A DNA stretch of 64,000 nucleotides from Selaginella moellendorffii (Eukaryota; Plantae; Lycopodiophyta): NCBI RefSeq assembly GCF_000143415.4, contig NW_003314324.1, forward strand, positions 157,864 to 221,863, given 5' to 3'. The notes under the pieces are model-generated. The model was not told the origin of the DNA, did not search any database, and saw only the letters and a list, made by a program, of their open reading frames with translations. Made by a program: the position numbers and the translations under genes. Below are positions 1 to 60,500 of the stretch, in pieces (the stretch's first letter is position 1; each line of letters starts with the position of its first letter).

Positions 1-310
1 GGCGGGGTCGGGGTTCATGTTTAGCAAAGGGGCCAAACCAAGGGAAACGTATAGTAGAGGGAAATTCAAGAAGAGTTTCTCTAAGAATGAGTCCTTGGGG
101 TTCCGGAAAGGCAAATCTGGTGGCCAGCGAGCGAGTACGTGGGGGAGTCAAGCAAAAAGAGACAAACCCACGGATAAGAAGGTCAAGTCATATAGCAGCA
201 TGGGAAATAACGTATGCTACAACTGCGGCAAAGCATGACACTTTTTGAGGGAATGTCCCTACCCGAAGAAAGCCAGAGCCAATATGGCCATCAAGTTGGG
301 TGAAGTCTAA
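1..310 (+). pseudogene. gag: gag C-terminus with CCHC zinc knuckle
   Basis: CYNCGKA*HFLRECP at about 216-260; internal stop at the conserved Gly. Confidence 0.85.
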
Positions 311-363
311 ATGAGGTATGTGATCTAGTCCCTAACCCAAAGTTACTCATTACACGAGCAACT

Positions 364-3268
364 TTGGTAGAGAGTCATTCGCGACATCTACTAGCCCTCC
401 GAGGGAAGCTCGGAGGTAGCTTTGTTAAGATCTTTATTGACATGGGTGCTTCAGACAATTTTGTGGCTGCAGACATAGTCCGGCAAGCTGGACTAATGGT
501 GCAGCGGCTAGGCGAACCAACGACTATAGAGTTTGTTCAAGGTAGCCAAAGCACCGATGAGGTATTTCGATAAGCGAGAGTCGAAGTAAGGACATAGAAA
601 GTAGACATGGATTTCACAGTGTTGGACATAGTGGGATTTGACGTGATCTTCAGAATGAATTGGTTCAATCGGTTCGTGGTAGCCCTACATGGACAAGGTT
701 CTTAAGAACCTTGTGGTACTGGCGAATGCCCAGGGAAGAAGATTTAGGGTGGAGGCCCAGGATCTAAAGGTAGGGCAAAGCAAGGCCAAAGATTCTTGCT
801 TAAACCTGGTGTCCACGAGAGGACAACTCACTAAAGAAACTAAGGCAGCATTTTTGTGCTTACTCTCGGTGAAGAGTGACAAAAAGACAAGAACGGAAGA
901 AGTACCTTTAGTGATCTAGTGGGTGTTGGACCAATTCCAGGATACCATGCTAGAGGAGTTACCAACGGGGTTGCCCCCCGCACGACCGATAGAACATAAG
1001 ATTGAACTGGTCGAGGGTGCTAAAGCGGTGGTTTGTCCCCCCTATCATTTGAACAAAAAAAACTCAAGGAGCTCAAGTGCCAACTAAAGGAGTTGGTGGA
1101 CAAAGGGTATGTTAGGTTGAGCAAGTCACCATATGGGGTGCCAGTGTTATTTGTGATAAAGAAAGATGGATCTATGCACATGTGCATAGACTACCAATTG
1201 CTCATCAAGTATACAAAAAGAACAAGTACCCTTTGCCAAGGATTGAGGACCTGTTCAATAGGTTAGGAAAGGCAAAATACTTCTTGAGGATTGACCTAAA
1301 CTCAAGATACTACCAGATTAGGGTAGCAGAGAAAGATGTTAAGAAGACAATCTGTCGAATCAGGTATGGGAGCTTTGAGTTTCTGGTGATGCCCTTTGGG
1401 CTGTGCAATGCGCCAGCAACGTTTTCGGCGTTGATGAACGATATCTTTGTACCCTATCTAGATCACTTCGTGGTTGTCTATATCGATGACATCCTGATCT
1501 ATAGCGAGACACTAGAGGAGCATGTCGAACACTTGGCAAAGGTGTTTGAGAAACTAAGAGAACACAAACTGTATGCTAAAGAGAGCAAATGTTACTTTGC
1601 TCAATAAGAGGTAAAGTTTCTCGGGCATGTGGTGGGCCAGGACGGGCTCAAGGTGGACCCGGAGAAGGTCCAAGCGATCCAAGAATGGGAGCGACCATTG
1701 AATGTACATGAGCTAAGGGCATTCTTGGGGCTATGCAATTACTACCGAAAGTTTATCAGACATTATTTGAGAGTAGCCCTACCTTTAACGGACCAAACGG
1801 GAAAAGGGAAGATGGTATGGACAGTGGAATGCGAGGCGGCATTCGTCCACCTCAAAGGGAAGTTGAGGAAGGCTCCCGTGTTGGCATTACCAGACTTTGG
1901 TAAGGACTTTGAGGTAGAAACGGATGCTTCGGACGTTGCATTGGGTGCAGTTTTGAAGCAAGATAACCATCTAGTAGCATTCTTCTTGAAGAAGTTAGAC
2001 AAGGCTCAATAGAAGTGGCCTGCCCACGAGAAGGAATTGTTTGTGGTGGTCAAGGCACTCAAGGAATGGCGACACTACCATGGGAGACACTTCAAGGTTT
2101 ACACGGACAATGTGGCAACGAAACACTTCTTGTCACAGCCCGACCTGAGAGGGAAACAGGGTCGGTGGGCCAATGCCTTGGCCGAGTTTGATTGCGAGAT
2201 TTTGTACAAGCCTGGGAAGAGCAATATCGTGGCGGATGCGCTAAGTTGAAAAGCGAGCTTGAGGTTGGCGATATCCAGGGCGACAGCAACCTTTTGGGAC
2301 GATGTGCGGACAGCATATGAAAACGATGGTTTAGCACAAGAAGTGTTGCTGAGGAATCTAGAGGCACGGGAAGCTCACCAGAGAAGTGAGCTGCCAACGG
2401 AAGAGAAAACGGGCTATGCAGAACGCAACGGACTCATCTATTACAAACAAATGAAGGTGTATGTTCCAGAAGGGGAACTAAGGAAGGTAGCTTTAGAAGA
2501 GTGTTATGATGGACCTCTTGTGGGACACGACGGAGTGCTCAAGACGATGGGCTTACTCAAGAGGAAGTATCACTGGCTAGATATGGCTAAGGACGTCCAA
2601 GACTATGTAAAGACATGTCTAACATGTCAGCAGGTAAAAGCTGTGATTAAGGCTAGTGGGGGCTTGTTGCAAAGCATCCCAATTCCGGATCGTCTGTGGA
2701 AATGTCTTATGATGGACTTTATTATGGGACCCCCCCCCCCCCCCCCCCAAGCGAGGGGTTCGATGCGATATTCGTGGTGGTGGACCAATTTTCGAAGATG
2801 GCACATTTCATACCCACCACAACGGAAGTGGATGTGGAAGGTGTGGCAAAGCTGTTCTTTGAACAAGTGGTTTGAGTGCGGGGAAGGCCAGAAGAGATTA
2901 TTTCAGATCGAGATAAGATCTTCACTAGTAGATTCTGGAGAACTCTCCTAGAATAGTATCGCACCAAGTTGAAATTCAGCACCACCTATCACCCACAGAC
3001 AGGTATTGGGTATTAAGTCAAGTTTGATGGCACTAACACTTCTTGACAGATGGATAAATAGAAAGGGTGAATAGGTAGCTGGAGGATTATTTGCGATGCT
3101 ATGTCTCGGGAGACTAGACCGATTGGGTAAGTCATTTGGGACTTGCGGAAATGTGTTATAACAACTCACCACATTCGAGTATCGGGGTGAGTCCATGGGA
3201 AGTCATCAATGGGCGAGCTATTGAAGGTCCTGTAGAACTCGGCGTGGCCGAGTATCACGGAGAGTTAC
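364..3268 (+). pseudogene. pol: gypsy pol part 1: protease, RT, RNase H, integrase core
   Basis: IFIDMGASDNFV (PR); MPFGLCNAPATF and VVVYIDDILIYS (RT); VETDASD and VYTDN (RNase H); GH...CLTCQ (IN Zn finger); SDRD and STTYHPQT/DG (IN). Many stops; poly-C frameshift near 2730-2748. Confidence 0.95.
3003..3049 (+). other. 47-nt GT-AG intron-like insertion in the integrase catalytic core
   Basis: CAG|GTATTG...CTAAC...TTGACAG|AT. Removal restores HPQT-D-G*IERVNR*LEDYLRCY and the reading frame. Confidence 0.8.
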
Positions 3269-5130
3269 TGTGAGACACAAAATCCCTAGGCCCCAAAGTG
3301 GAGCCGGAAAGGGTGCCACGTGGTAGTGGCTGAAGCGAGAGCCAAACGAGCGTAACACGTTTGGACCAAAAGCTCAGACTTGAAAAGTCAAGAGCGGGAG
3401 TGGAACTCCAAAAGAAGTGCTCAAGGAACGAGCACGAAGCGAGCAAAAAGCGAGGCTCCAAAAAGGGACCCAAAAGGACCAACACATGACACGTGGAAGT
3501 GTCCGAGATGGACTCAAGTTGGAGTCCGAAGTGGAGTCCGAGATGGACTCGAGTTGGAGTCCAAAGTGGAGTCCGAGATGGACTCGAGTTGGAGTCCGAA
3601 GTGGAGTCCGAGATGGACTCGAGTTGGAGTCCGAAGTGGAGTCCGAGATGGACCCGAGTTGGAGTCCGAAGTGGAGTCCGAGATGGACCCGAGATGGAGT
3701 CCGAGGTGGACCCAAGATGGACCCGAAATGGAGTCCGAGATGGAGTCCGAGGTGGACCCGAGATGGACCCGAAATGGAGTCCAAGATGGAGTCCGAGATG
3801 GACCCGAGATGGAGTCCGAGATGGACCCGAAATGGAGTCCGAGGTGGACCCGAGATGGACCCGAAATGGAGTCCGAGATGGAGTCCGAGATGGACCCGAG
3901 ATGGACCCGAAATGGACCCGAAATGGAGTCCAAGATGGACCCGAGATGGAGTCCGAGATGGACCCGAGATGGAGTCCGAGATGGAGTCCGAAGTCGAGAC
4001 CGAGACCGGGACCGAGACCGAGACCGAGACCGAGATCGGGACCGAGAACGAGACCGAGGCCAAGGCCGAGACCGAGCCCGAGCCCGAGTCCGAGTCCGAG
4101 TCCGAGTCCGAGTCCGAGTTCGAGTCTGAGAGGGTGAAAGCCCAAAGCGTTCATCTCCCAGACCCTGGGGGGTTTGGTGAGCTCCAAAAGTATAGTAGGG
4201 GGGAGGACTGCAGTGGAGCCAGTTTGGCCAGGAAAGGCCAGTTTGGCCCAGGAAGGCCAGACCCAGTGTTGGGTGATGAGCTGCCCACTGGGAAGTCCAA
4301 GACTAGAGTGAACACAGACTGACAAGTGGGGTAGCTTGGTGAAGTGTTCAAGAGCCGGCTCTAGTTCCCCCGGGAGATCGACTGGCCGATGCTCCCAGTC
4401 NNNNNNNNNNNNNNNNNNNNNNNNNNNNNNNNNNNNNNNNNNNNNNNNNNNNNNNNNNNNNNNNNNNNNNNNNNNNNNNNNNNNNNNNNNNNNNNNNNNN
4501 GAGAGTACCCAGGTGGCTCGCGTAAGGCCACGGTGTTCCGAAAGGTTGTCCCAAAGGCCCAGACTGTGGAAAGGAAGAGGAGCAGTCCTCTGGGGTAGTG
4601 ACCAAGGACACAGTCGTGTGGTGAGGAAGTCCCAGAGGACCATGGGACTTAGTGGTCGGGCCTGTGGGTCTCGATCCAGTGGCAGTGTTGGCAAACACGG
4701 CCAGGGGCAGAAAGGGACTTAGTGGGGACTGACAGAGGGATATTGGGGAAGGCTATTCCCCTTGTCGGTGGGCATCCTAAGGATGCTAAGGAGTGGATCT
4801 GAGATGACCACTCACGGATGGTTTGCCTAGTCTTGGAGGGCCAAGACGGTGATGCAAGTGGTGTTGGACCACCAGTGTGACTAAGGTAAATGGGCATGGC
4901 CTTAGCGTAACGGGCCGGTACGTTGGTGATACCTTGGGGTGTCGATCATGGGATCGGACACGTGGAGCACTTGGACCAAGTGCTAAGGTTGAGTGGCATG
5001 GATGCCATTCTCGGGGCTAGCAAGCCCCAAGTCCTGAGTTGGACTTATGGAGGTTGTCAATGAGACTCCTCCAAGTGGTCAGAGGTGTGGTTAAGTGACT
5101 AAAGTAAAATGCAAAATTTAGTCGCTTACA
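3269..5130 (+). repeat. 5' LTR of A copy 1 (contains an N gap)
   Basis: TGTGAGAC...GCTTACA. Confidence 0.93.
3500..4128 (+). repeat. LTR-internal minisatellite: GAGATGGAGTCC / GAGATGGACCC units, then CCGAG(A/G/T) hexamers
   Basis: Directly visible. Also at about 9470-10088, 15080-15495, 55680-56260, 61580-62080. Source of the SISD/MESE/RPRP ORFs. Confidence 0.95.
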
Positions 5131-5133
5131 ACT

Positions 5134-5145
5134 TGGTATCGGAGC
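5134..5145 (+). promoter_or_regulatory. Primer-binding site, tRNA-iMet type
   Basis: TGGTATCGGAGC, 3 nt after the LTR end. Confidence 0.9.
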
Positions 5146-7614
5146 TGTTCCTTAGTCCGACTTTTATTGGTGCTCAAGTATATCACCACTAGTGTTGGCA
5201 TCGGAAGGTCCGAGGAGTGGGCCTATCCTTGAGGAGTAGCAAGTCGGGAAGACATGGCTCTCCATTACAGTTCATGTGTGAACTTGTAGACGAGGTGGTG
5301 GATAGAAAAGGGCCAATAATGGAACGACTTTGGGATCTTGGGAACAGTGCAAGGTTTTCCTCATTGAGTTGAGGATGTGATCCGGATGAGCATTTGTCTC
5401 AGCAAATTGGCTAAGGTTGTTGTGGTAAACAACTAAAGTTGGGATCATGGGAAAGATAGAGACTCCAAAACAATAAAGGAGTCACAAGATTATCCTCATA
5501 TAGTTGAGGTTGGTGCTCATGAATGTGAGACCAAAGGTAATGACTGTGGGAGGTCAAATACGGAAGAGGACTCAAGTCCTTGAAATGGTAGCCGGGGCTA
5601 CCTTTAATAAATGCTGGAAAAACCCAAGGAATTGGGGGGTGTACTTAGAGATGAGTTGGTATTCTCATCACATGGACAAGTAGTCCTAAGGGGCAAAGGT
5701 TGCCTAGAGAACAAAATCAAGTGTCGGAGTAACACTTGTGAAAATAGTCCTTTTGAGTAGGACAGGAATGCAAGAAGTGTATTCCAGTGAGCTAGTGCCT
5801 CACAAGTAGGACCTTACATGTCTGTGGATTAACCAAGTCCAAAACTGCTGGATGACTCAAGTAGAGTCAAGGGATGGTCCTAAAAGGACTGATGGAAGCA
5901 TTTGGACTAATGTGTGTTGTACCCCACAAAGGATTGGGGGGGATCATAGGATCCAAGGATGAGAACAGAGGGTATTTCATTGATGGCAAAATGTGCTATG
6001 CTAAAGTTATGGGAAAGGTGTTCCCAGAAGAAAACAACTTTGACATAAAGTTGTGTGTGACCTCTATAGGGCAGTGCTAATGGATGGTTGGCATGAGAAA
6101 GAGCGGTGTTGGTCTTGGCAAAGACTTAGACACGAAGGGGAAATGTCATAGAGGTAGGCTCGTGGAGCCGATGGTGTGGAGACACCAAATGTGCCAAGGT
6201 GTGATACCTTAAGGCTATGTTGGTGGGTTCATGAGAACCCCTTGCCAAAGGAATCCCAATGGAAATGGGAATGGCATAGCCTAAGCTGCAGAGCATGCAA
6301 TTGGAGTGTGGTGACCCAGATAATGATGGAGGTGTGAAAGCACCAAGCAATGAGTTGTAGGACTTGACAACTATGAGGCAACTAAGCCAGAGGTGCAAAA
6401 TAACTGGTTAAACGGGTAGAAGGTAGCTACCTAAGACTTCTTAATAGCATAAGGAAGTTGGATATACCCTTACGGGGGATAAGTTGCTTGTGTTGCGATA
6501 TAGTAAGTCAATGTCATAAAAGGAAATACTCGTTGTCAAGAAAGCCATCATTGGGACACCCGGACACTCTAGAACACTAGAAGGTGGTGTTTGATGTCGC
6601 GAGGGCAATGGATAAAGCCCAAGGGACTAAGTCCCTAGTGAATGATGGATAGAAGGTGCTATCCAAATGTCCAAGGTTGCGGAGACAGGAGAGGACTGTC
6701 TACCCGAGTTGGACAAAGCCAAAAATGGAATTTTGGCAAGGCTAGTGATGGGCATGTAAAGGCCCATAAGCAACAATGTAATCCCAGTGTGTGAGATTAT
6801 AAGGTGAGCATACCCGGATTGAGGAACCACTCCCTAGGCTACTGGGTAGGTTCATCCCTAAGAATACTTGCTAAAGCGTGATAGAAAGTGCAAAGCTATT
6901 CTCCTGGTCTGGAGGAGAATGACCAAAGGAAAGGTGTGAAGCCAAAAAGCAAGGAGTAAGGGGATAGAACCGAACCATAGGAATCAAAGGGCATAACCAA
7001 GGTTGGTTATGCCAGCTGAGAGTGGAGAATTAAGTGGGGGCTCAAGGGTGTTGCCGCTAGCAACCGTGATGCCATGGAGAGTCTAAAATATGGAATTGTC
7101 CATGTTAGACTATGTGGCATTTTGAAAGCTTGCAAAAAGGGAGGCCTTAGCAAGCTGAGGGACAGAGTTCCTTCAAGGTTCCCAAAGACGATTCCAGGTA
7201 GCTTAGTACCTAGAAAGGCCAAGTGTAAATGGTTCATGGAACGCGCGAAATCAGAGTGGCGCAGCAGAAGCGTGGTCTTGAAGCTTGCCATGAGGCAAGG
7301 CTATCAAGGTTAGGGAAGTAGTTCCCGAGTGTTCAAAGAGAGGGCTTTGAACGAAAGTCGATGGTCAAGGACTTTCACGCTTATGCAGGAACCATGTTAC
7401 CGTGGTCGGAGGACTTGCCAAGCGAGATTGGCACGTCGGGGGAACAAATACCCTAGTTGAAGGTGATAACTTCAAAAAGGGTGGGCCATGGGGCCAAGCA
7501 TGGAGGAGTCCATGCATGATCACAGACATGTCAAGTGAGAGGACTTGGCAGTGTGGAGGAACTAGGTTCTTAAACTGTGATCTGTAGCGCGCTTTAAAAA
7601 TAAGTTGGTGCACC

Positions 7615-8021
7615 GGCGTGGGGAGTCACGCCAGGCATCTTGTGTGATGCCGTCCGTAGATGCATATACGGAGGTTGGGTTCGAGTCCCGACCCTCTAGT
7701 GCTTGGGTTCGAGTCCCAAATCACTAGGGCGTGGTGATGGTTTGGAATATGAGGACACTCCTATTTCGGTGGTCATGGACTCTCAGTGGGGAAACTGGTT
7801 TGGGCACACCGCCAAGCGAGGGATGCCTCGGAGTCGTGATGCACGGTTAGATTGCTTAGTGTGAAAGCTCGGCATATCTAACTTGAACGCTTTGGTGCAA
7901 GTGGCACCAAGGACGTGGTGAGTGAGATGGGGACACCTAATCTCAGTTGCTATGGACCCTTGGCCGGAAGGGCTGGCTTGGGCACACCGCCAAGTGTGGG
8001 GGATGCCCCCGGGGTCGTAGT
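7615..8021 (+). ncRNA. Putative cis-acting structured RNA in A internal region (hairpin array, two T-loop hairpins, two GACA-hairpin/3-way-junction units)
   Basis: Stems readable by eye, with covariation against the homologous segment in the gypsy B 3' UTR (11868-12046). Confidence 0.6.
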
Positions 8022-9226
8022 TAACAAGTTAAAGGTCTGGAAGACCTAGTACTTATTGGCAAACCTGTTAAGGTGTCGAGGTGAGATCACTAGGTGATCT
8101 TGTGGCTAAATAGGGACAAGGTCCTTGTTTGGGTTAAGGAATAAGGTTCCTAGTTCAAAGTGTTGATTTGAACTATTGATGATGGTGTGGCTTGGTCAAG
8201 GTGACCAAGTGGGAAAAGCACCTTAGGGAAATGAGCTATGTCATTGCGATGGCATAGTGTGTCCAAGGAAAGTAGTCTCTAAAGAGACCCATGAGAGGGT
8301 CACAAAGTTGGGCCGAGGATAGAGCCCACAGCAAAAGATGCTAAAAGAGACTTACTAGGGGTGAACACCCTAGTCTTGGCAAAGCAGAGCCTTTGCTATG
8401 GAATCAAAAGAATACCTCAAGGAGGGAGGTAGAGATTCGATGTTGCTTGGTGGACCAATCAACGGATAGGAGCAAAAGATGAGTGGCCAAGATAGGGCCG
8501 TGGAATCCCTGGGAAGGAATCCAAGTGACAAAGTTAGGCAAGGAACACTAATGTGTTGGACGCTAACAAATTGCGGGAAAGGAAGTGTGTTTCCAAGGAT
8601 GGATTCTGAATTGCTCCGATTTGGCGAAAGTGGAAGCTCCAAGGGAGGGAGCGGTAAGGTAGCCAAATGATAGGGCGATGGACAACCCTAGCACAAAGTG
8701 TGATAAATGGAACTTAGTGCCCAAGGTGGCACGAAATAGAAGAGAGGATGATGGTGCCCTCAAGTAATGAACTTCCTAGGATAGGGAAGTGGAGTCGCAC
8801 AATCTGTGCAATGCAAGGTGTTGGAGACACCTAGGAAATTGACTTCCAAAAGTCAAAAGAGTAAAAGTTCCAAGGTGCAAACATTCACTAGAAGGAAATT
8901 GAGACTACTCAAGAAGGAGTAGTGGGATTGACTTAGAGAAGGGTCTTTAAGAGGTTTAGCGAGAATTAAACCAATAAAAGGAGAGAACCACTACATGTGG
9001 TCCAATCAGTCTCTAAGTTGGGGAGACTACCCTCCTTAGAGGATAGGCAAGGCATGGTGAGCCTTTGGTGTCAAACCATTGAGGCATATGTAAAAGGCAT
9101 GGTGAGCCTTCAATGTCAAACCATTGACAAATATTGGCTAGGTGCCAAGGATGGAAATGGTAACACATGTGAGTGTTACTTTACAAAATGGTTTACCGTT
9201 CGATGAGGACATCGAACTTCGTCTAT

Positions 9227-9238
9227 GGGTGGTGGAGT
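9227..9238 (+). promoter_or_regulatory. Polypurine tract of A
   Basis: GGGTGGTGGAGT directly before the 3' LTR. Confidence 0.85.
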
Positions 9239-11084
9239 TGTGAGACACAAAATCCCTAGGCCCCAAAGTGGAGCCGGAAAGGGTGCCACGTGGTAGTGGC
9301 TGAAGCGAGAGCCAAACGAGCGTAACACGTTTGGACCAAAAGCTCCGACTTGAAAAGTCAAGAGCGGGAGTGGAACTCCCAAAGAAGTGCTCAAGGAACG
9401 AGCACGAAGCGAGCAAAAAGCAAGGCTCCAAAAAGGGACCCAAAAGGACCAACACATGACACGTGGAAGTGTCCGAGATGGACTCGAGTTGGAGTCCGAA
9501 GTGGAGTCCGAGATGGACTCGAGTTGGAGTCCAAATTGGAGTCCGAGATGGACTCGAGTTGGAGTCCGAAGTGGAGTCCGAGATGGACTCGAGTTGGAGT
9601 CCGAAGTGGAGTCCGAGATGGACCCGAGTTGGAGTCCGAAGTGGAGTCCGAGATGGACCCGAGATGGAGTCCGAGGTGGACCCGAGATGGACCCGAAATG
9701 GAGTCTGAGATGGAGTCCGAGGTGGACCCGAGATGGACCCGAAATGGAGTCCAAGATGGAGTCCGAGATGGACCCGAGATGGAGTCCGAGATGGACCCGA
9801 AATGGAGTCCGAGGTGGACCCGAGATGGACCCGAAATGGAGTCCGAGATGGACCCGAGATGGACCCGAAATGGAGTCCGAGATGGACCCAAGATGGAGTC
9901 CGAGATGGACCCGAGATGGAGTCCGAGATGGAGTCTGAGATGGAGTCCAAAGTCGAGACCGAGACCGGGACCGAGACCGAGACTGAGACCGAGATCGGGA
10001 CCGAGAACGAGACCGAGGCCGAGGCCGAGACCGAGGCCGAGCCCGAGTCCGAGTCTGAGTCCGAGTCCGAGTCCGAGTTTGAGTCTGAGAGGGTGAAAGC
10101 CCAAAGCGTTCGTCTCCCAGACCCTGGGGGGTTTGGTGAGCTCCAAAAGTATAGTAGGGGGGAGGACTGCTGTTGAGCCAGTTTGGCCAGGAAAGGCCAG
10201 TTTGGCCCAGGAAGGCCAGACCCAGTGTTGGGTGATGAGCTGCCCACTGGGAAGTCCAAGACTAGAGTGAACACAGACCGACAAGTGGGGTAGCTTGGTG
10301 AAGTGTTCAAGAGCCGGCTCTAGTTCCCCCGGGAGATCGACTGGCCGATGCTCCCAGTCCAAGTGTGGGTGGCACTACCTACTTGGATACCTGGTGTGGC
10401 TCAACGGAACCCGCTCTAAGCCCATGGCTAGAGCACCCAAGGGCAGAAGGCGAGGAGAGTACCCAGGTGGCTCGCGTAAGGCCACGGTGTTCCGAAATGT
10501 TGTCCCAAAGGCCCAGACTGTGGAAAGGAAGAGGAGCAGTCCTCTGGGGTAGTGACCAAGGACATAGTCGTGTGGTGAGGAAGTCCCAGAGGACCATGGG
10601 ACTTAGTGGTCGGGCCTGTGGGTCTCGATCCAGTGGCAGTGTTGGCAAACACGGCCAGGGGCAGAAAGGGACTTAGTGGGGACTGACAGAGGGATATTGG
10701 GGAAGGCTATTCCCCTTGTCGGTGGGCATCCTAAGGATGCTAAGGAGTGGATCTGAGATGACCACTCAGGGATGGTTTGCCTAGTCTTGGAGGGCCAAGA
10801 CGGAGATGCAAGTGGTGTTGGACCACCAGTGTGACCAAGGTAAATGGGCATGGCCTTAGCGTAACGGGCCGGTACGTCGGTGATACCTTGGGGTGTCGAT
10901 CATGGGATCGGACACGTGGAGCACTTGGACCAAGTGCTAAGGTTGAGTGGCATGGATGCCATTCTCGGGGCTAGCAAGCCCCAAGTCCTGAGTTGGACTT
11001 ATGGAGGTTGTCAATGAGACTCCTCCAAGTGGTCAGAGGTGTGGTTAAGTGACTAAAGTAAAATGCAAAATTTAGTCGCTTACA
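9239..11084 (+). repeat. 3' LTR of A copy 1
   Basis: Direct repeat of 3269-5130. Confidence 0.95.
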
Positions 11085-11089
11085 GTTAC

Positions 11090-11712
11090 CCGCAGTGGAG
11101 GCATTCATGGCGGAAAGACTCAACATTTGGAATCTAGTGAGGGATTCCTTGGAACGGGCTCAACAAAGGCAAACCAAGTACGCGAACCAAAAGCACCGAG
11201 ATGTAGAGTTCCAAGTTGGGGAGAAGGTGACCAAGAACCTCAGGCTACCAAGTGGGATCAGCCGGAAGTTGACCCAAAGGTAAAATGCATGTATTCCTGT
11301 AAATGAATTGATCTTGAGTTCCTTAAGAAGGTTCGCGGGGCCTTACGAGATTGAGGCACGAATCGGTAAAGTGGCTTACCGTCTCCGACTTCCTCGAGAG
11401 ATGGGGAAGATGCACCCAGTGTTCCACGTGAACTTACTCAATCCGTACATTGAGGATCCGCTTCGCAAGAACCAAGTAAGACCTTCACCTGAGGTTATCC
11501 AAGGGGAAGAGGAATATGAAGTCGAGGCCATCTTCAATGCGCGCAAGAGCAAGTGACAAAGACGCGAGGTGAGAGAGTTCCATGTGAAGTGGAAAGGATT
11601 TCCACACTATGAAGCAACATGGGAACCAGAGGAAAACCTAGCGAATGCATGAGATCTAGTGGAGGAATTTCTGCAAGGCAGAACTCTATGTACTTATGCA
11701 AAGTTCAATTAA
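11090..11712 (+). pseudogene. pol: gypsy pol part 2: integrase C-terminus (GPY/F) and chromodomain
   Basis: Joins part 1 in frame (YHGEL/PAVEAF) after removing A plus one TSD copy. FAGPYEI, HPVFHV, EYEVEAIF...FHVKWKGF...ATWEPEENL. Confidence 0.93.
11280..11330 (+). other. 51-nt GT-AG intron-like insertion in integrase GPY region
   Basis: CAA AG|GTAAAA...TAAGAAG|G TTC. Removal gives KLTQRFAGPYE; the insert carries an in-frame TAA. Confidence 0.75.
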
Positions 11713-12113
11713 AGTATCAATTTGCGAAGTTGAGTAGTGACATATGTTGGGACCTGAAGGCACGTCGAAGGTAAGCTAATTAGCATGGGTTAGCTAGGTC
11801 GACCAAGTGTAGGGCACTACACCCAACTCCCCGTGGGGATGTCGAATCCATAGACGTATTCTACGGAGGTTGGGTTCGAGTCCCAACCCCCTAGTAAAGC
11901 AAGGCTGGGTTCAAGTCTCGACCTCATACTAGGGCGTGGTGAGGTGAGGGGTATAGGGACACCTATATTCCGTTGTCATGGGCTCTTGGCCGGGGAGGCT
12001 AACTTAGGCACACCGCTAAGTGGGGGGATGCCCCCGGAGACATGGTCAACAACTCGTATGATAAAAAGAGACGTTCGATGTGGGCATTGAACTTCTTCCA
12101 TAGGTGGTGGAGT

Positions 12114-13236
12114 TGTAAGGAACTGACTCCCCGAGGTGTCGTAGGCTAAAGGATCCCCGAAAGCATAACCAAAATGACAAAGAGTTCATCGGATGGGACC
12201 GAGTTGAAGATTGAGTCCAAGACCGACTCTGAGACCGAGTTCGAGATAGGTCCGGGATCGAGTCCGAGGCCGAATCGGAGACTGAGTTCGAGACAAAGTT
12301 TGAGATCCGAATCGGGTCCAAGACCAAGTCCGAGGTCAAGTTCGAAGTCGAGTCCAAGATCGGGTCTGAGATCAAGTCCAAGATTGAGTCCGAGACCGAG
12401 TCCAAAGTCGGATCCGAGATCAAGTTCGAGACCGAGTCCGAATACTAATACGGGTCAAGGGGTGAAAGCCCAAAGCGTGCGTCTCCTAGGGCGGGGGGGG
12501 GGCTGCAGGGGGTTCCAAAAGTATAGTAGGGATAGTGAGGTCCAGGAACCAGTCTTGAAGGAACTCTCCAGTGGTGCTTCCAAATTGACTTGAGGTTGAG
12601 ACTGGGGCCAAAGGGCCTTGGGTGGGAGTGAGCATGGGCTTGGATGGTGCGGAGGGGCCACCTAGGGAAGTGCTCAAGAGTAACTCCCACTCCTGAAAGG
12701 GAAACCGACTATGGTGCTCCCGGCTCATGTGGAGTGGTGCCCCACTTGAGTACCTTGTGGCTTATTGGTCCTTGCCCTTCCTAGGGGCTTGGGCCCTCCC
12801 TTCGGGATGGAAGTGGGGGGGTAGAGGTACCCATACCGGGCCGTTAGGCCACGGTGTTTCGCCCCGATGTCCCGAAGCAAATGTTGCACCCAAGGCTTGG
12901 GATTTAGAGGGTCCTATGATCAAGTCTTGTTGTACCAAGAGGTGTTAGGAACATGGAGGCTTGGTGTGCTTGGTTGCTTGTGCCTGCAGGGAGTGTAGCC
13001 GAACCTTAAGTCTAGTCCAACCCGGGGAGGGGGATTGGGAGAGATTTGGGAATTCATGGATGGGTGGTTAACACTCCGTTGTTTGTGTAGTGAGTAGCTA
13101 AAACCAAATAGGACCAAGTAGGAGCTGGTACAATAAGTAGGAACCTTGGCGAGGGAACTTAGCACAAGCTAAGGCAGTGTTGGTCAGATAGACGAGGTAA
13201 GCTAGCAAATTGGAAAGGAAAAATTTGTGACTTACA
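12114..13236 (+). repeat. 3' LTR of gypsy family B (about 1.12 kb)
   Basis: TG...CA termini after the PPT; matches the inverted solo copy at 51357-52501. Confidence 0.92.
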
Positions 13237-14062
13237 ACACCCTCACTATCATATCCTTTGTGTTAGTCTCAATTTGGTCCCAAATGTTATTTATAAAAAG
13301 TGTCTAGATTTGCTCATTTAGCATATCTCTGGAATGTAGAGATTGTCTTGAACACAATGGTGTTCGTGTCGTGTCCAAAACATGTGTTCCTCAGGGGGGG
13401 GGGGGGGAACGGGATGTGGGGTATTCCAAATGTATAGTAGGGATAGTGGGTAGATTGAGCATGGGTGACAAACTTAAGGCATAGTTTAGCTCCCCCTTGT
13501 GTGTCTGTTTCTTTGTTCTGCATCCAGCTTAGGTCTAAGCCCAAGTTCCACACCATACTAGCTGGTGGAGTACTCATATCCTTGCATTAGGCCACTAGTA
13601 TGCTGAAATAGTGTCAAACTCCATTTAACTCTGTTTTGCGTGGTAGTCTTGGCATTAGGATGCTAGATGCTCTAAGACTGTTCCAAGTTGCTCCACACTC
13701 CTGTTCTTTTGCTCCTTAGGCTGTATGCTCAAGAGTCATTCTGTGCTCTAGTGGCATTACTCCTTGGCTCCATACTTGGGAGTTTGGCATTGTTCTTTCA
13801 TTCAGTGGCCCAAGGCCCTAAAACTTGCGTTCTGCACCACTATCCTTTGGACACGTGGTATGTGGCATGTGGGATATGACACGTGGCATGTAGAGAGTTT
13901 AGGTTTCTCTTCATGGTTATCCTAAGGTAAATCACCATAGGATAAAGGGTAAAAATCACATGCACTACATTTGGTATCAAAGGATACGTCTCACGAGTAC
14001 TATCCGATGAGATTGGGCAACTAGTTTCGTTACATACACAAAGATGAAAACGATGATTCGAG

Positions 14063-15707
14063 TGTAAGTGACTAATTTTTCCATTCTAGTTTAGTCACTT
14101 AACCACACCTCCGACCACTTGGAAGAGTCTTACTCACAACCTCCATAAGTTCTATTCCGGACTTGGGCATACTAGCCCCGAGAATGGCATCCCCGCCACT
14201 CAACCTTTGCACTTGGCCCAAGTGCTCCACATGTCCGATCCCAAGACCGACACCCAAAGGTACTACTAACATATCAGCTTGTTAGCTAAGGCCATGCCCA
14301 TTCACTTTTGCTACACTGGTGGTCCAATACCACTTGCATCACAGTCTTGCCTCTCCAAAACTGGGCCATCCATCCATGAGTGGTCATCCCAGATCCACTC
14401 TTTAGCATCCTTAGGATGCCTACAGACATAGGGAATAGCCTTCCCCAATATCCCTTTGTCAATTCCTACCAAGTCCCTTTTCTATCCATGGCTATGTTCG
14501 CCAACACTGCCACTAGATCAAGGCCCGCAAGCTCGGCCACTAAGTCCCATTGTCCTCTGGAACTTCTTCACCACATGGCCATATCCTTAGTCACTACACT
14601 AGAGGACTGTTCCTCCTCCTTTCCTTAATTTGGGACTTCGGGATAACATTTCAAAACACTATGGCCCTACGCAAGCCCCGTGGGTACTCTCCCCACCTTC
14701 TGCATTTAGGTGCTCTAGCCATGGGCTTAGAGCGAGGTTCCATTGAGCCATGCCAGGTATCCAAGTAGCTAGTGCCACCCACACTTGGACTAGGAGCATC
14801 GGCCATTTGATCTCCCAGGGGAACTAGAGCTGGCTCTTGAATACTTCACCAAGTTACCCCACTTGTCAGTTCGTATTCACTCTAGCCTTGGACGTCCCAG
14901 TGGCTATCCCATCACCCAACATCTGGGTACAGCCTTCTTGGGCCAAACTAGCCTTTCCGGGCCAAACTGGCCTTTCCTAGCCAAACTGGCTCCACTGGAG
15001 TCCTCCCCTACTATACTTTTGGAGCTCACCAAACCTCCCAGGGTTTGGGAGATGAATGCTTTGAGCTTTCACCCTCTTAGACTCGAACTCGGACTCGGAC
15101 TTGGACTCAGACTCGGACTCGGATTCGGACTTGGGCTCGGTCTTGGCCTCGCCCTTGGTCTTGGCCTCACCCTTGGTCTTGGCCTTGGCCTCGGTCTCGG
15201 TCTCAGTCCCAGTCTCGATCTTGGTCTCAGTCCCGGTCTCGGTCTCGGTCTCGACTTCGGACTCCATCTCGGGTCCTTCTCGGATTCCATCTCGGGTCCA
15301 TTTCGGACTCCATCTCGGGTCCATCTCAGTCCATCTCGGACTCCATCTCAGTCCATCTCGGACTCCATCTCGGGTCCATCTCGGACTCCATCTCAGTCCA
15401 TCTCGGACTCCATCTCGGGTCCATCTCGGACTCCATCTCGGGTCCATCTCAAGCTCCATCTCGGGTCCATCTCGGACTCCATCTCGGGTCCATCTTGGTC
15501 CTCTTGTGTCTCTTTTCTAGAGACTCACTTATTGCTCATTTCATGCTTGTTCCTCGAACACTTCATTGGGAGTTCCACTCCCGCTTTCGACTTTTCAAAT
15601 TGGAGCTTTTAATCCAAATGTGTTATGTTTGTTTGGCTTTCGCTTTGGCCACTACCACATGGCACCCTTTTGGCTCCACTTTGGGGCTTAGGGATTTGTG
15701 TCTCACT
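14063..15707 (-). mobile_element. Solo LTR of family A
   Basis: Reverse complement of the A LTR; TSD TCGAG/CCGAG; the empty site is visible in inner C near 18450. Confidence 0.9.
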
Positions 15708-30630: not shown

Positions 30631-30634
30631 GCCC

Positions 30635-43125: not shown

Positions 43126-43590
43126 GTCGATCCCACTTAGGGTTCTACCAAAACTTTAAAACCCTAAACCTGTCCGAGAATAAAAACGGTCAAGAGCCCG
43201 ATCTCTGACACGTGTTGACATCCCAGCCGTCGCCGGATTCTGAAATGTGGCCAGGCTGTTAGCCATAGCTCCTCGCTAAGAAGAACTCTTCCTTGTTTCA
43301 TTCGTGTGCTTAAAAACCATTACTTAGGTTCTTGAGATGCCGCCATGGCGATGGCGATGACGAGCTTAGAATCGCCGGCACGGGAAGATCAGGCTCTCGA
43401 TCGGCGTATTTCTGGCAGATCTTCGGCAAGGAGAGGTATTTCCCAGGTGTAATCTGGATCCATAGCTTAGATGCCGCTGCCATAGGTCGAAATATCGCCA
43501 GCATTGAGAAATCCATGCCCTGGCGAGCGAGGGAGAGCCAGCATTCTTGGCAAGGCACAAGATTTCGATAGATTTTGGAACAGGGCAGCA

Positions 43591-48879: not shown

Positions 48880-51190
48880 TGTCGTGAATGTGATTGTGGG
48901 TATCAAAACTATTTATCGGTGAGTCCTTTCAAATATTCTTTCTTTACTGCCACAATGGCAAAAAATCAATATTGCTAAACCCTTTATTAATTTCTGCCCA
49001 AATTAGTTTTGAAAGTGTTAATTTCAAAAGGGGGTGGCCCATGAGGCCAATTATGGAGGAGTCCATGCATGATCATAGGTTGATCAATTAATTTGTCAAG
49101 TGAGAGAACTTGGAAGCTCAAAAGAACTATGTTCTTAAGCTATGATTTGTATAAAAACATTTATTTTTTGGTGGTCATGAACTCTCAGTAAGGAGGTTGA
49201 TTTAGGCACACTATAAAGCAAGAGATGCCTTGAACTTATGATGCATGGTTAGAGTGTTTAGTGTGAAAAGTTAGCATATTTAATTTGAACACTCTAGTGT
49301 AAATGGCATTAAGGATGTGATAAATGAGATGGGGATTCCCAATCTCAATTGCTATAAACCTTTGGCCGGAAGGGTTAGTTTAGGTGCACTGCCAAGAGTG
49401 GGGAATACCCCTGGGGTTATGGTTAATAACTTAAAGGTTTAATAGACTTAATACTTATTGGTATATATGTTAATGTGTCAATATTAGATCACTAAGTGAT
49501 CTTATAGCTAAACAAGGATAAACTCTTTATTAGGTTAAGGAATAAATTTTTTAGTTCAAATTATATATTTGAACTATTGATAAAGGTGACTAAAAGGGAA
49601 AGACACCTAGGTGAAATAAGCTATGAAATACAATGGTATTGTGAGTCCAAGAAAAGTTGTCTTTAAGGAAGGACCCAGAGAAGGGTCATAAGATTGGGCC
49701 AAGGATAGATCCTATAATAAAAAATGCTAAAGAGATTGAACTTGACAAAATAAAGCCTTTTCTATGGAACTAAAATAATACATTAAGGATAGAGGTAGTG
49801 ATCCTTTATTGCTTAGTGCAATAATCAAATGATAGAAGCAAAAGACTAGTGTCCAATAATGGGTCTTAAAAATTATTAGAAGGAATCTAAATTATAAATT
49901 AGGCAAGGAACCACCATATAGTTAGGAAAGAAAATATATTTCCAAGGATGGATTTCCCAAATATTCCAATATGGCAAAGGTGAAAGCTTCGAGAGATGGA
50001 GCGATAAAGTAGCCAAATAATAAAGCTATGGACAGCTTTAATATAAATTATGAATAAGTGGAACTTAGTGTTTAGGGTGGCATAGAATAAAAAAGAAGAT
50101 GATAATGTCCTCAAGTGAAGAACTTCCTAGGATGGGAAAGTGAAATTTGCATAATATATGTAATACAAGATGTCAAAGACACCAAGGAAATTGACTTTAG
50201 AAATCAAAATCAAAATTCTAAAGTATGATGGTTCTATTGATAGAGGCCAAAACTTCTCCAAAATGAGTAGTGAAATTGAGATAGTCTCTAACAAGTTTAA
50301 CGAGAGCTAAACAAATAAAGAAAGAAAACCACCACAAGTGATATTATGAGTTTCTAACCTAAAGAGACTATACTCTTTAGAGGATGGGCAAGACATGGTG
50401 AACCTTCGGTGGTGAACCCTTGATAAATATTGGCTTAGTGCCAAGGAATCCATGGTGGGGTTATATTATAAAATGGTTTATTGTTCGATGATATTAAACT
50501 TCATTTATGTGTGGTGGAGTTGTGAGACATAAATCCTTAAGCCCTAAATTGGAGCTGAAAGTAAGCCATATGCTAATGGTTAAAGCAGAAGTTTAACAAG
50601 CATAACACATTTGGACCAAAAACTCTAACTAGGAAAGTTAAGAGTAGGAGTGGAACTCCAAATAAAGTGCTCAAGAATGACCATGAAGCAAATGAATCTT
50701 TAGAAAGGGACACAAGAAGGCCTAACACATTGCAAGTGTCAAACATATGGAAGTGTCAGGACCAAGTTTGAGATGGAGTCCAAAAAGGAGTTTAAGAAGG
50801 AGTCTGAAATGGAATCCAAAAAGGAGTTTGAGATGGAGTCCAAGCAGTAATCTAAAATGGAGTCCGAGAAGGAGTCTAAGATGGAGTTTGAGCAAGAATC
50901 CAAGATGAAGTTTGAGAAGGAGTCCGAGATGGAGTCCAAGATAGAGTCTGAGATGGAGTCTAAGAAGGAGTTTGAGATGGAATCCAAAAAAAGACAGACT
51001 TGGACCCAGACTCAAATTGGTCTTAATCTTGGTCTCGGTCCCAATCTCGGTCTTAATCTTAGTTTTGGTCTCAACTTGGACTCCATCTCGGACGAGTCTG
51101 AATCCAAGTTTAAAGGTGAAAGCCCAAAATGATTGTCTTCTAGACCTTGAGGGGTTTAGTGAGTTCCAAAAGGATAGTAGAGGGAGGACT
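48880..51190 (+). mobile_element. Decayed chimeric remnant: C-LTR start (48880 to about 49010), then A internal 3' part and A LTR (from 50521)
   Basis: TGTCGTGAATGTGA matches the C LTR start; 49020-50520 aligns to 7470-9238; PPT plus TGTGAGAC at 50521. Confidence 0.8.
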
Positions 51191-57500: not shown

Positions 57501-60500
57501 TTAGGTGTCCTTCCCACTTAGTCACCTTGACCAAGCCACACCTTTATCAATAGTTCAAATCAACACTTTGAACTGGGAATCATATTCCTTAATCCAAACA
57601 AAGACCTTATCCTTGTTTAGCCATAAGATCACCTAGTGATCTTATCTTGACCCCTTAATAGGTCTATCAATAGGGACTAGGTCTTCCAGACCCTTCTAAG
57701 GTCTTGACTATGACCCCGGGGGCATCCCCCACACTTGGCGGTGCGCCCAAGCCAGCCCTTCCGGCCAAGGATCCATAGCAACTGAGATTGGGTGTCCCCA
57801 TCTCATTCACCACGTCCTTGGTGCTTTTTGCACCAAAGTGTTCAAGTTAGATATGCCAAGCTTTCACTCTAAGCAATTTAACCGTGCATCACGACTCCGA
57901 AGCATCCCTCGCTTGGCGGTGTGCCCAAACCAGTCTCCTCACTGAGAGTCCATGACCACCGAAATATGAGTGTCCTCATATTCCAAACCATCACCACGCC
58001 CTAGTGATTTGGGACTCGAACCCAAGCACTAGAGGGTCGGGACTCGAACCCAACCTCCGTATATGCATCTACGGACGGCATCACCCAGGATGCCTGGCGT
58101 GACTCCCCACGCCAGTGCACCAACTTATACTCAAAGCGCACTATAGATCACAGCTTAGGAACCTAGTTCCTCCACATTGCCAAGTCCTCTCACTTGACAA
58201 GTCTGTGATCATGCATGGACTCCTCCATGCTTGGCCCCATGGCCCACCCTTTTTGAAGTTATCACCTTCAACTAGAGTATTTGTTCCTCTGACTTGCTAA
58301 TCTCGCTTTGGCAAGTCCTCCGACCACTGTAACATGGTTCCTACACAAGCGTGAAAGCCCTTGATCATCGACTTTCGTTCAAAGCCCTCTCTTTGAACAC
58401 TCGGGAACTACTTCCCTAACATTGATAGCCTTGCCTCATGGCAAGCTTCAAGACCACGCTTCTGCTGCGCCACTCTGATTTTGCGCGTGCTTTGAACCAT
58501 TTACACTTAGCCTTTCTAGGTACTAAGCTACCTAGAATCATCTTTGGGAACCTTGAAGGAACCCTGTTCCTTAGCTTGCTAAGGCCTCCCTTTTTGCAAG
58601 CTTTCCAATTACCATATAGTCTAACATGGACAATTCCATATTTTAGACTCTCCATGGCATCACGGTTGCTAGCGGCAACACCCTCGAGCCCCCACTTGAT
58701 TCTCCACTCCCAGCTGGCATAACCAACCTTGGTTATGCCCTTCGATTCCTATGGTTCGGTTCTACCCCTTACTTCTTGCTTTTGGCTTCACACCTTTCCT
58801 TTGGTCATTCTCCTCCAGACTAGGAGGACAGTTTTGCACTTTCTATCATGCCTTAGCAAGTATTTTTAGGGATGAACCTACCCGATAGCCTAGGGAGTGG
58901 TTCCTCAATCCATGTATGCTCACCCTATAATCCCACACACCGAGATTACGTTGTTGCTTATGGGCCTTTACATGCCCATCGCTAGCCTTGCTAAAATTCC
59001 ATTTTTGGCTTTGTCCATTTCGAGTAGACAGTCTTCTCCTGTCTCCGCCACCTTGGACATTTGGATAGCACCTTCTATCCATCATTCGCTAGGGACTTAG
59101 TCCCTTGGGCCTTATCTATTGCCCTCACAACATCAAATACCACCTCCTGGTGTTCTAGAGCGTTCCGGTGTCCCAATGACGGCTTCCTTGACAATGAGTA
59201 TTTCCTTTCATGACATTGACTTACCATATCGCAACATAAGCAACTTATCCCCCATAAGGGTATATCCAACTTCCTTATGTCATTAAGAAGGCTTGGGTAG
59301 CTACCTTCTACCCGTTTAACCAATTATTTTGCACCTCTTGCTTAGTTGCCTCATAGTTATCAAGTCTTACAACTCATTGCTGGTGCTTCCACACCTCCAT
59401 CATTATCTGGGTCACCACACTCCAACTGCATGCTCTGCAACTTAGGCTATGCCATTCCCATTTCCATTGAGATTCCTTTGGCAAAGGGGTTCTCATGAAC
59501 CCACCAACATAGCCTCAAGGTACCACACCTTGGCACATTTGGTGTCTCCACACCATCAGCTCCACGAGCCTACCTCTATGACACTTCTTCTTTGTGTCTA
59601 AGTCTTTGCCAAGACCAATACCACTCTTTCTCATGCCAACCATCCGTTAGCACTGCACCATAGAGGTCACACACAACTTTGTTTCAAAGTTGTTTTCTTT
59701 TGGGAACACCTTTCCCACGACTTTAGTATGGCACATTTTGCCATCGATGAGATACCCTCTGTTCTTATCCTTGGATCCTATGATCCCCCCCATCCTTCAT
59801 GGGGTACCACTTAGTCCAAATGCTTCCATCGGTCTTTTAGGATTATTCCTTGACTCTATTGGAGTCATCCAGCTTTTTGGACTTTGTCATCCGACGACCC
59901 ATGAGGTCCTACCTTTGAGGTGCCAGCTCACTGGAATACAACTTCTTGTATTCAGGTCCTACTCACAAGGACCATCTTTGCAAGTGTTACTCCGACACTT
60001 GATTTGTTCTCTTGGGGCAACCTTTTGCCTCTTAGGACCACTTGTCCATGTGATGAGAATACCAACTCATCCTCTAAGTACATCCCCAACTCCTTGGGTT
60101 GTTCCAGCATTTATCAAGGGTAACCCCAGCTACCATTTCGAGGACTTGTGTCCTCTCCTATATTTGACCTCCCATGGTCATCAATTCCGGTCTCAAAGTT
60201 ATGAGCACTGGCCTCAACTATATGAGGGTAATCTTGTGACTCCTTTATTATTTTGGAGTCTACATCTTTCCCGTGATCCCAATTATAGTTGTTTACCACA
60301 ACTACGTTAGCCCGTTTGCTGCGTCAAACGCTCATCTGGATCACATCCTCAGCTCTCTGAGGAAACCTTATACTGTTCCCAAGATCCCAAAGTCATTCTA
60401 TTATTGGCCCTTTTCTATCCACCACATCGTGCCCAAGTTCACGCATGAACTTGAGTGGAGAGCCATGTCCACTCGACATGCTACTCCTCAAGGATAGGCC

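What the first reader, a model, noticed from the sequence alone, without database searches (positions are those of the whole stretch)
7731..8021. Covarying GACA-hairpin plus three-way-junction RNA motif, duplicated in A and single in B
Seen: the unit GTGGTGA - stem/GACA loop - P1 - P2 - P3 occurs at about 7731-7840, 7915-8021 and 11936-12046. The GACA stem differs in each but still pairs: GAATATGAG/CTC.TATTT, TGAGAT.GG/CCT.ATCTCA, GGTATAGG/CCTATATT. P1 covaries (TCATGGACTC/GAGTCGTGA vs CTATGGACCC/GGGTCGTAG), as does P2 (TCAGT/ACTGG, TTGGCC/GGCTGG, TTGGCC/GGCTAA). P3 is GGGCA..CCGC/TGCCY. It sits in about 400 nt of back-to-back hairpins. Inference: a cis-acting RNA I do not recognise (packaging/dimerisation, CTE-like export of unspliced RNA, or ribozyme) kept by the non-coding element.
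Basis: partly seen in the sequence, partly recalled or inferred. Interest (0 to 1): 0.75.

Follow-up and report, generated by a model that had tools for sequence, protein, structure and literature searches.

The report
tRNA-like RNA signal in spikemoss retrotransposon
A spikemoss retrotransposon and a gene-less partner element share a short stretch predicted to fold into two tRNA-arm-like hairpins and a four-way RNA junction, whose base pairs survive sequence change, and it likely marks the RNA for packaging by the retrotransposon's proteins, a signal we found no description of in plants.

Summary
The motif is real but was mis-drawn. The window is Selaginella moellendorffii. B is a broken chromovirus that fits SM1-Galahad. 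A is a 7.8-kb non-coding LTR element nested in B's integrase. Apart from 42 nt before the 3' LTR, this module is all that A's 4.1-kb interior shares with B.

Each unit is a GTGGTG leader, a GACA hairpin and a FOUR-way junction with no unpaired linker bases, not a three-way junction. The window holds 6 clear units. On their alignment 93% of pair cells are kept and 12 of 39 pairs change on both sides. The fold is specific to the sense strand.

Rfam has no match, and 80 distant chromoviruses lack the module. Transcripts are nearly absent, so function is untested. Best reading (0.5): a genome-selection signal for packaging or dimerisation, read by the helper's Gag. Main rival: a host-factor export or localisation element. 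A ribozyme is unlikely, and a strict CTE is unlikely because plants are reported to lack NXF1 export. Caveats: only three independent lineages, and methylation decay mimics some covariation.

The parts
3269..11084 (+). Element A: non-coding LTR element (LARD-like), LTRs 3269-5130 and 9239-11084, flanked by a 5-bp target duplication GTTAC; nested in the integrase region of B
   Evidence: LTRs differ at 31 of 1750 aligned sites; longest stop-free frame in the interior is 105 aa, no blastn/tblastn match to B's coding part
5134..5145 (+). Primer-binding site of A (starts TGGTATC; Met-tRNA type as described for SM1-Galahad)
   Evidence: PMC3350952 section 2.1
7653..7672 (+). Hairpin just upstream of T1; start of the region shared with B
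7673..7693 (+). T1: 7-bp stem with loop TTCGAGT, shaped like a tRNA T-arm (box B); loop TTCGAG is self-complementary
7696..7727 (+). T2 (7703-7719, loop TTCGAGT) on an outer 6-bp stem whose inner pair is G-C in A and A-U in B
7731..7737 (+). Leader GTGGTGA of unit 1; complementary to CACCGC in the P3 loop and stem (possible pseudoknot, no covariation to test)
7744..7767 (+). GACA hairpin of unit 1; the T.C mismatch at 7761 is private to this copy
7773..7839 (+). Four-way junction of unit 1: P1 with bulged G, P2 7783-7798, P3 7799-7816 (loop GCACACCG), P4 7817-7830 (loop GATG)
7915..8020 (+). Unit 2 of A: leader 7915-7921, GACA hairpin 7923-7945, four-way junction 7950-8020; the family mostly reads GYGCACCG in the P3 loop
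9197..9238 (+). 42 nt before A's 3' LTR (polypurine-tract region), the only other interior stretch shared with B (12072-12113)
1..3268 (+). B, 5' part: broken gag/pol (zinc-knuckle-like motif read by eye, RT, integrase zinc finger)
11085..11712 (+). B, 3' part of pol: integrase tail, SH3 domain and chromodomain, with stop codons
11847..11932 (+). B: upstream hairpin, T1 (11868-11888, loop TTCGAGT) and T2 (11903-11923, loop TTCAAGT, one C.A mismatch) on its outer stem
11936..12045 (+). B's single unit in the 3' untranslated region: leader, 10-bp GACA hairpin 11948-11971, four-way junction 11976-12045
12114..13236 (+). 3' LTR of B, 1123 nt, with a poly-G tract
57704..58070 (-). Same module (T1, T2, unit 1, unit 2) in C, a second full copy of family A at 54697-62317
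49139..49426 (+). Decayed units 1 and 2 in fragment D of family A; used as a neutral-decay control

Best explanation
The shared stretch in the 3' region of a spikemoss chromovirus and its gene-less partner is predicted to fold, on the sense RNA, into two T-arm-like hairpins, a GACA hairpin and a four-way junction, and it likely serves as the signal by which the helper's Gag selects, and possibly dimerises, the genomic RNA for packaging. SHOWN: the position; that this is the only interior island shared by A and B besides the polypurine-tract region; that base pairs are kept across diverged copies; that it is duplicated in A. INFERRED: the fold exists in vivo; the leader pairs with the P3 loop as a pseudoknot; exposed G-rich loops bind the nucleocapsid zinc knuckle; the self-complementary T-loops start dimer formation; A is mobilised by B's family and doubled the unit to compete for Gag.
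For: (1) A's 4.1-kb interior has no match to B's coding part. It matches B's 3' UTR only at the module (73.5% over 189 columns; 77.2% over 123) and at 42 nt before the LTR. The LTRs share only patches of about 68-80%.
(2) Pairs are kept. Among A1, A2 and B, 13-18 stem substitutions break 0-1 of 27 pairs; a random model expects 4.4-8.7 (P 0.003-0.04 if all changes are transitions, <=0.0007 with 70% transitions). On 6 aligned units, 93% of cells pair and 12 of 39 pairs change on both sides; slid controls give 35-52% and 1-3 pairs.
(3) Family-wide variants in DNA contigs: of 28 sites at >=8% in run X1, 12 fall in stems and 11 keep or restore the pair.
(4) Sense-strand specific: z -1.3/-2.8/-2.9 on +, -0.7/-0.5/-1.3 on -, with 4-6 G.U pairs per unit.
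(5) The distance to the 3' LTR differs (about 70 nt in B, 1.2 kb in A), which fits a binding signal better than a priming signal.
(6) T1 and T2 of A and T1 of B gain 10.5 kcal/mol as homoduplexes, against 1.5-1.8 for the GACA and P3 hairpins tested alongside.
(7) Non-autonomous elements are expected to keep a structure-conserved packaging signal (PMC4558846, passages). Ty3 packaging depends on UTRs or POL (PMC4974528, passages).
Against: No functional data. RNA reads are nearly absent: 12 reads on 4.1 kb among 3 x 9.2 million records. Only three independent lineages were available, and the helices were defined from those same sequences. Methylation-type decay alone gave 4 double-sided changes, and only 7 breaks, among 32 stem substitutions in the dead D copies, so part of the covariation could be neutral. 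One common variant (7763, 28% in X1) breaks a pair of the unit-1 GACA stem. The mapped Ty1 packaging region and the Ty3 dimerisation site are 5', whereas this module is 3'. GACA is not the GACG loop of alpha/gamma-retroviral signals. B's T2 loop is no longer self-complementary. A third non-coding LTR family in the window (E) shares an LTR motif with A and B but has no module; its helper is unknown and it has an N gap. A's whole interior is hairpin-rich. Between A and C the module is no better conserved than the 1.5 kb upstream of it.
Confidence: 0.5

Rival explanations
1. A host-factor element for nuclear export, localisation or stability of the unspliced RNA. The T-arm mimics would recruit tRNA-handling or export proteins, so it would work like the RTE/MTE of mouse retrotransposons or the box B recruitment element of brome mosaic virus, not like a Gag site.
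For: It lies between pol and the 3' LTR, where mammalian export elements lie (position recalled; RTE and MTE described in PMC12786077 section 2.2). Tandem T-loop hairpins resemble box B, which is conserved with the tRNA T-loop and needed for RNA recruitment (PMC4083346 one passage; PMC5869524 passages). B's T2 keeps the T-loop pattern but loses the palindrome. A non-coding RNA also has to leave the nucleus.
Against: Plants are reported to lack the NXF1 route used by CTE, RTE and MTE. No Rfam export element matches. Family E has no such module. No host partner was tested.
Confidence: 0.25
2. A reverse-transcription helper that docks the primer tRNA, circularises the genome or aids strand transfer, like the 3' part of the bipartite primer site of Ty3.
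For: Ty3 has primer-binding segments in its 3' UTR (PMC4974528 and PMC11381356, passages). The leader shares 6-7 nt with a stretch at 7250-7276 that looks like the 5' end of the initiator tRNA (identity recalled, not confirmed by any search).
Against: The units pair with that stretch no better than background (-15.0 to -17.3 kcal/mol against a mean of -15.5, sd 2.9). Only the 5' part of the presumed tRNA could be tested. The distance to the polypurine tract differs by more than 1 kb between A and B.
Confidence: 0.08
3. No specific function: a remnant of common descent or a recent swap between A and B, inside an RNA that is hairpin-rich throughout; or the two box B motifs act only as DNA sites for TFIIIC or Pol III.
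For: A's interior folds better than shuffles on both strands. Decay creates apparent compensation. Single-copy deletions across the module exist in DNA contigs (table 5). The T-loop hairpins contain a box B sequence.
Against: Copies differ at about a quarter of sites yet keep a junction with no unpaired linker and nearly all pairs. Everything around the module has lost similarity between A and B. G.U pairs make the fold strand-specific. Stems extend beyond the box B letters.
Confidence: 0.13
4. A self-cleaving ribozyme, as in retrozymes or in tandem 184-nt units that would release a small circle.
For: Selaginella carries tandem hammerhead repeats (PMC5680766, passages). A perfect four-way junction is the natural scaffold of the hairpin ribozyme (recalled). 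A possible pseudoknot gives a compact fold.
Against: No Rfam family matches at the gathering threshold or at E up to 10. There are no paired internal loops like those of the hairpin ribozyme. Retrozyme ribozymes sit in the LTRs, while these units are internal, where a cut would sever the template.
Confidence: 0.04

Closest known systems
Retroviral and retrotransposon packaging/dimerisation signals (Psi/DIS; GACG-tetraloop hairpins of alpha- and gammaretroviruses; Ty1/Ty3 palindromes)
   Same: A cluster of conserved hairpins on the genomic RNA, purine-rich exposed loops, self-complementary loop sequence in T1/T2, retention by a non-autonomous element (PMC516450 passages).
   Different: Located 3' of pol, not in the 5' leader. 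Tetraloop is GACA, not GACG. Includes tRNA T-arm mimics and a four-way junction. No binding or dimer data.
Mammalian RNA export elements CTE, RTE (IAP) and MTE (MusD)
   Same: Structured cis element of an LTR element's unspliced RNA; a possible pseudoknot as in MTE; 3' position (recalled).
   Different: No Rfam match. Plants are reported to lack the NXF1 pathway they use. No symmetric internal loops of the CTE type (feature recalled).
Box B / T-loop recruitment element of brome mosaic virus
   Same: T-loop sequence presented at the tip of a stem-loop in a non-coding part of a plant genomic RNA.
   Different: Two tandem hairpins joined to a junction, in a retroelement; the partner would be Gag or a host protein, not replicase 1a.
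SM1-Galahad (Galadriel clade chromovirus of Selaginella moellendorffii) and LARD-type partners such as Dasheng/RIRE2
   Same: B has an LTR of 1123 nt with poly-G, a chromodomain and the host described for SM1-Galahad. A is a >4 kb non-coding element sharing cis parts with an autonomous one.
   Different: The section describing SM1-Galahad mentions neither a non-coding partner nor a 3' RNA structure. No sequence comparison with the published element was possible.
Plant retrozymes and Cassandra elements
   Same: Non-autonomous plant LTR elements carrying a structured RNA.
   Different: Their hammerhead or 5S sequence lies in the LTR (Cassandra seen only as a reference title, position recalled). 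Here the motif is internal, also present in the autonomous element, and matches neither family.

Membership tests
Any Rfam 15 family | Covariance-model match at the family's gathering score | tested here: not met
   Whole window: one weak tRNA hit at 35762 only. 7300-8500 at E<=10: one chance lncRNA hit, 4.8 bits.
Retroviral Psi/DIS | Located in the 5' leader near the primer site | tested here: not met
   Lies 3' of pol in B and 2.5 kb after the primer site in A.
Retroviral Psi/DIS | GACG tetraloop hairpins (alpha/gamma type) | tested here: not met
   Loop is GACA in A1, A2, B, C1 and C2; no variant at >=8% at these loop positions in the DNA contigs.
Retroviral Psi/DIS | Hairpin with self-complementary loop able to form an extended duplex | tested here: inconclusive
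   Predicted for T1 and T2 of A and T1 of B (gain 10.5 kcal/mol); lost in T2 of B; any TTCGAG T-loop would score so.
Retroviral Psi/DIS | Selective Gag/NC binding and need for packaging | not testable with these tools
   Needs binding and particle assays.
CTE/RTE/MTE export elements | Acts through TAP/NXF1 | not testable with these tools
   A review states that plants use TREX instead; not tested on this genome.
tRNA or tRNA-derived gene | Cloverleaf with acceptor, D, anticodon and T arms in order | tested here: not met
   ARAGORN finds 0 genes in the window. The T-loop hairpins lie outside the four-way junction, whose fourth arm has a GATG loop.
Small self-cleaving ribozymes / retrozymes | Known catalytic core | tested here: not met
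   No Rfam match.
Small self-cleaving ribozymes / retrozymes | Ribozyme embedded in the LTRs | tested here: not met
   The units are internal; LTR positions score at most 10.6 bits with the model.
Small self-cleaving ribozymes / retrozymes | Site-specific cleavage | not testable with these tools
   RNA reads too few to show ends.
LARD (element A) | LTRs, primer site, target duplication, >4 kb, no coding capacity | tested here: met
   size definition from PMC4558846 passage
SM1-Galahad (element B) | Host, LTR of about 1.1 kb with poly-G tract, chromodomain after integrase | tested here: met
SM1-Galahad (element B) | >80% nucleotide identity to the published element, or placement in its clade on an RT tree | not tested

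The most novel reading that the evidence does not exclude
This is the first structurally defined packaging signal of a plant LTR retrotransposon: a 3' module in which tandem tRNA T-arm mimics dimerise the genome and a pseudoknotted four-way junction binds Gag, and which a gene-less parasite has duplicated to out-compete its helper.
Probability: 0.25. Interest if true: 0.8.

Novelty: new variant of a known kind. Interest (0 to 1): 0.52.

Why it matters
How plant LTR retrotransposons choose, export and package their own RNA is largely open. A 2025 review says export has not been studied directly in plants, and packaging signals are described as hard to identify because only structure is conserved. 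Here a helper and its gene-less partner narrow the candidate to about 200 nt with a definite, testable fold. That makes the question directly testable with short transcripts. It also ties a large non-coding element to its probable helper by something other than LTR similarity. If it proves confined to one Selaginella family pair, as the searches so far suggest, its reach is limited.

Tried and rejected
Genome-wide copies: no assembly is held for this window, so the family-level view rests on contig tables only.

Motif elsewhere: the full junction pattern found 0 stretches in metagenome contigs. The 17-nt P3 pattern found 13 viral-contig matches and the double T-arm pattern 9; none scores with the model. 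Of the 9, eight are a tRNA followed by a repeat of its 3' end and one (L021) has no Rfam match. 80 distant chromovirus loci (37-47% protein identity; 60 with >=500 nt downstream) gave 0 model hits at E<=5 with default filters. These are too distant for the blank to say much. Their first 150 nt downstream are not generally structured (median z -0.2; 8 of 71 below -2). The closest RT relative (71%) could not be fetched as DNA.

Expression: no RNA holder is listed. 12 raw reads were laid, with no pile-up of ends and no joints; this says nothing on cleavage. One contig of a run only guessed to be RNA joins an LTR end directly to 7429 and keeps the module. It may be a dead deletion at a primer-site look-alike, so I give it little weight.

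Rows dropped: 4 of the 32 variant rows reach 8% only in run X2 (7785, 7794, 7830, 7945). Two share one sequence context, so I took them as run artefacts. Three would keep the pair and one (7830) would break it.

tRNA identity of 7250-7276: not confirmed.

Sigma-70 scan: not relevant to a plant.

Earlier scan notes: nothing nearby; three unrelated tRNA notes share only T-loop words.

Print: ten full-text searches listed no paper describing this motif. Subscription papers, Repbase entries and the supplement of PMC3350952 were not seen.

Full report
SETTING. A gene at 36858-38348(-) is 100% identical to a named Selaginella moellendorffii protein. It has 1.85-kb LTRs that differ at 31 of 1750 sites, a 5-bp target duplication, and a TGGTATC primer site. 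Its 4.1-kb interior has no stop-free frame over 105 aa and no DNA or protein match to B's coding part. A is inserted in the integrase region of B. B has RT, integrase zinc finger, SH3 and chromo domains, stop codons and frameshifts, and a 1123-nt 3' LTR with a poly-G tract. These features fit SM1-Galahad (PMC3350952, passages and section 2.1 read; clade background in PMC6317226, passages); the assignment is by description, not by sequence. A second full copy of A (C, 54697-62317, minus strand) and a decayed fragment (D, about 49030-50980) are in the window. 10,345 contigs of one DNA run lie on 7640-8030, so A is a many-copy family; the table gives no copy number.

OBSERVATION. A covariance model from three copies finds 6 units at E<=1e-12, among them three not used to build it, plus a decayed seventh at 18.7 bits. 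The best hit outside these elements is 10.3 bits. After the leader GTGGTGA and the GACA hairpin comes P1 with a bulged G, enclosing three hairpins: P2 (purine loop), P3 (loop GYRCACCG) and P4 (loop GATG). In A1, A2 and B there are no unpaired bases at the four joints; RNAalifold shifts the junction by one pair but keeps four arms. The four-way fold is 4-6 kcal/mol better in A1, C1 and B and 0.6-1.7 worse in A2, C2 and D2. Two hairpins with 7-nt TTCRAGT loops, shaped like the tRNA T-arm, precede unit 1 in A and the unit in B. All 6 such hairpins in the window lie in these modules.

IS IT SELECTED? For: B's 400-nt 3' UTR matches A's interior only at the module and at 42 nt before the LTR. With helices registered by hand and ambiguous columns dropped, 13-18 stem substitutions between lineages break 0-1 of 27 pairs, with 3-5 double-sided changes. 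Random placement expects 4.4-8.7 breaks. The tool count on 6 model-aligned units gives 93% of 230 cells paired, 12 of 39 pairs changed on both sides, 0-1 of 500 shuffles as high on four of five measures (451 of 500 on the fifth), and slid controls far lower. That alignment was fitted to the structure. Of 28 family variants at >=8% in run X1, 16 are unpaired and 12 paired, and 11 of the 12 keep or restore pairing (four rows seen only in X2 were dropped). The two mismatch or loop oddities of the window's own copy (7761, 7984) are private. The fold is better on the sense strand and relies on G.U pairs.

Against: there are only three independent lineages, and the helices were defined on them. Many family variants are C-to-T changes that keep a pair by wobble automatically. 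The dead D copies show 4 double-sided changes and 7 breaks in 32 substitutions, so decay imitates compensation. Site 7763 (28%) breaks a stem pair. All of A's interior is hairpin-rich on both strands, and the module is not a peak of A-versus-C identity. I put the chance that this is a selected RNA structure at about 0.85.

WHAT IS KNOWN. Rfam has no match and ARAGORN finds no tRNA. Pattern scans and 80 distant chromovirus loci gave no model hit, so the module is so far confined to this family pair; no close relative from another plant could be fetched. Ten literature searches listed no description of it. Passages read give the analogies: GACG loops and palindromic kissing loops in retroviral dimerisation (PMC516450); 5' packaging and dimer sites in Ty1/Ty3, with a role for the UTRs and a 3' primer segment in Ty3 (PMC4974528, PMC11381356); box B T-loops in brome mosaic virus RNA recruitment (PMC4083346, PMC5869524); RTE/MTE and the absence of NXF1 export in plants (PMC12786077, passages and section 2.2); LTR-borne hammerheads in retrozymes (PMC5680766); structure-only packaging signals in non-autonomous elements (PMC4558846). 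PMC4272539 was searched for a motif without result.

MECHANISM. A gene-less element must keep whatever the helper's proteins and the host need on its RNA. A kept the LTR ends, a primer site, the polypurine-tract region and this module, and doubled the junction unit. The module's distance to the 3' LTR differs by over 1 kb between A and B, which argues against a role fixed to plus-strand priming. Its invariant single-stranded parts, the leader GTGGTG and the loop end CACCG(C), are complementary, and the loop positions that vary lie just outside that pairing. This suggests a pseudoknot that closes the junction, but invariance means it cannot be shown. T1 and T2 could start dimer formation through their self-complementary loops. 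I therefore favour genome selection by Gag (0.5) over a host export or localisation signal (0.25), no specific or DNA-only function (0.13), a primer or strand-transfer helper (0.08) and a ribozyme (0.04). None of these is tested. Public RNA runs show the element almost silent (12 reads). Family E, a third non-coding LTR family in the window, lacks the module, so it is not universal.

VERDICT. A real, probably selected, apparently undescribed structured RNA module of a plant chromovirus and its non-coding partner. It works most likely like a packaging signal but is not a member of any catalogued family. New variant of a known kind; interest 0.52.

Noticed in passing
window 7250-7276 (+) and 58454-58479 (-): A 27-nt stretch inside element A that, from recall, looks like the 5' end of the plant initiator Met-tRNA in sense orientation, about 400 nt upstream of the two box B hairpins. 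Its first seven letters also occur in family E's primer site. No call confirmed the identity.
   Followed up: partly
window 7488-7584 (+); 58144-58240 (-): A hairpin with a GGAG loop followed by a three-arm fold, just upstream of the module. It scores 14 bits (E 0.44) with the model in copy C and may be a third, older unit-like structure.
   Followed up: partly
L064 about 1631; L099 about 2711, L102 and L103 (same family); L100 about 1364: Single T-arm-like hairpins (5-bp stem), all on the sense strand, in 5 of 80 distant chromovirus loci (three families). In the four loci inspected they appear to lie about 100-340 nt inside the 3' LTR; they are not tRNA genes.
   Followed up: partly
window about 17218-18364, 23179-24326, 28205-29349, 13375-14064: A third non-coding LTR family (E) with a TGGTATC primer site and a T-rich interior. 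Its LTR shares a motif with the LTRs of A and B (GGGTGAAAGCCCAAAGCG, poly-G, then GTATAGTAGGG), probably a promoter. It has no obvious polypurine tract and no module.
   Followed up: partly
run X16 contig laid on window 7429-8958: A 2580-nt contig that appears to join an LTR end straight to 7429, deleting 2.3 kb of A's interior at a primer-site look-alike while keeping the module.
   Followed up: partly
window 3500-4130, 9470-10095, 12200-12440 and other LTR copies: The LTRs of A and B carry long tandem arrays of 11-12-nt units that give spurious long ORFs on both strands.
   Followed up: no
window 43486-45105 and 45274-47049 (+): Two adjacent paralogous intron-less genes for leucine-rich-repeat receptor-like proteins with a proline-rich N-terminus (read from translations).
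   Followed up: no
window about 30500-33500: A decayed copia-type element fragment (integrase core) with nested inverted repeats around 30732-33516.
   Followed up: no
window 7785 and 7945, run X2: A-to-G differences at 62-71% in one DNA run but under 0.2% in two runs of the same sample, both in the context TCTCAG; likely a run artefact.
   Followed up: no
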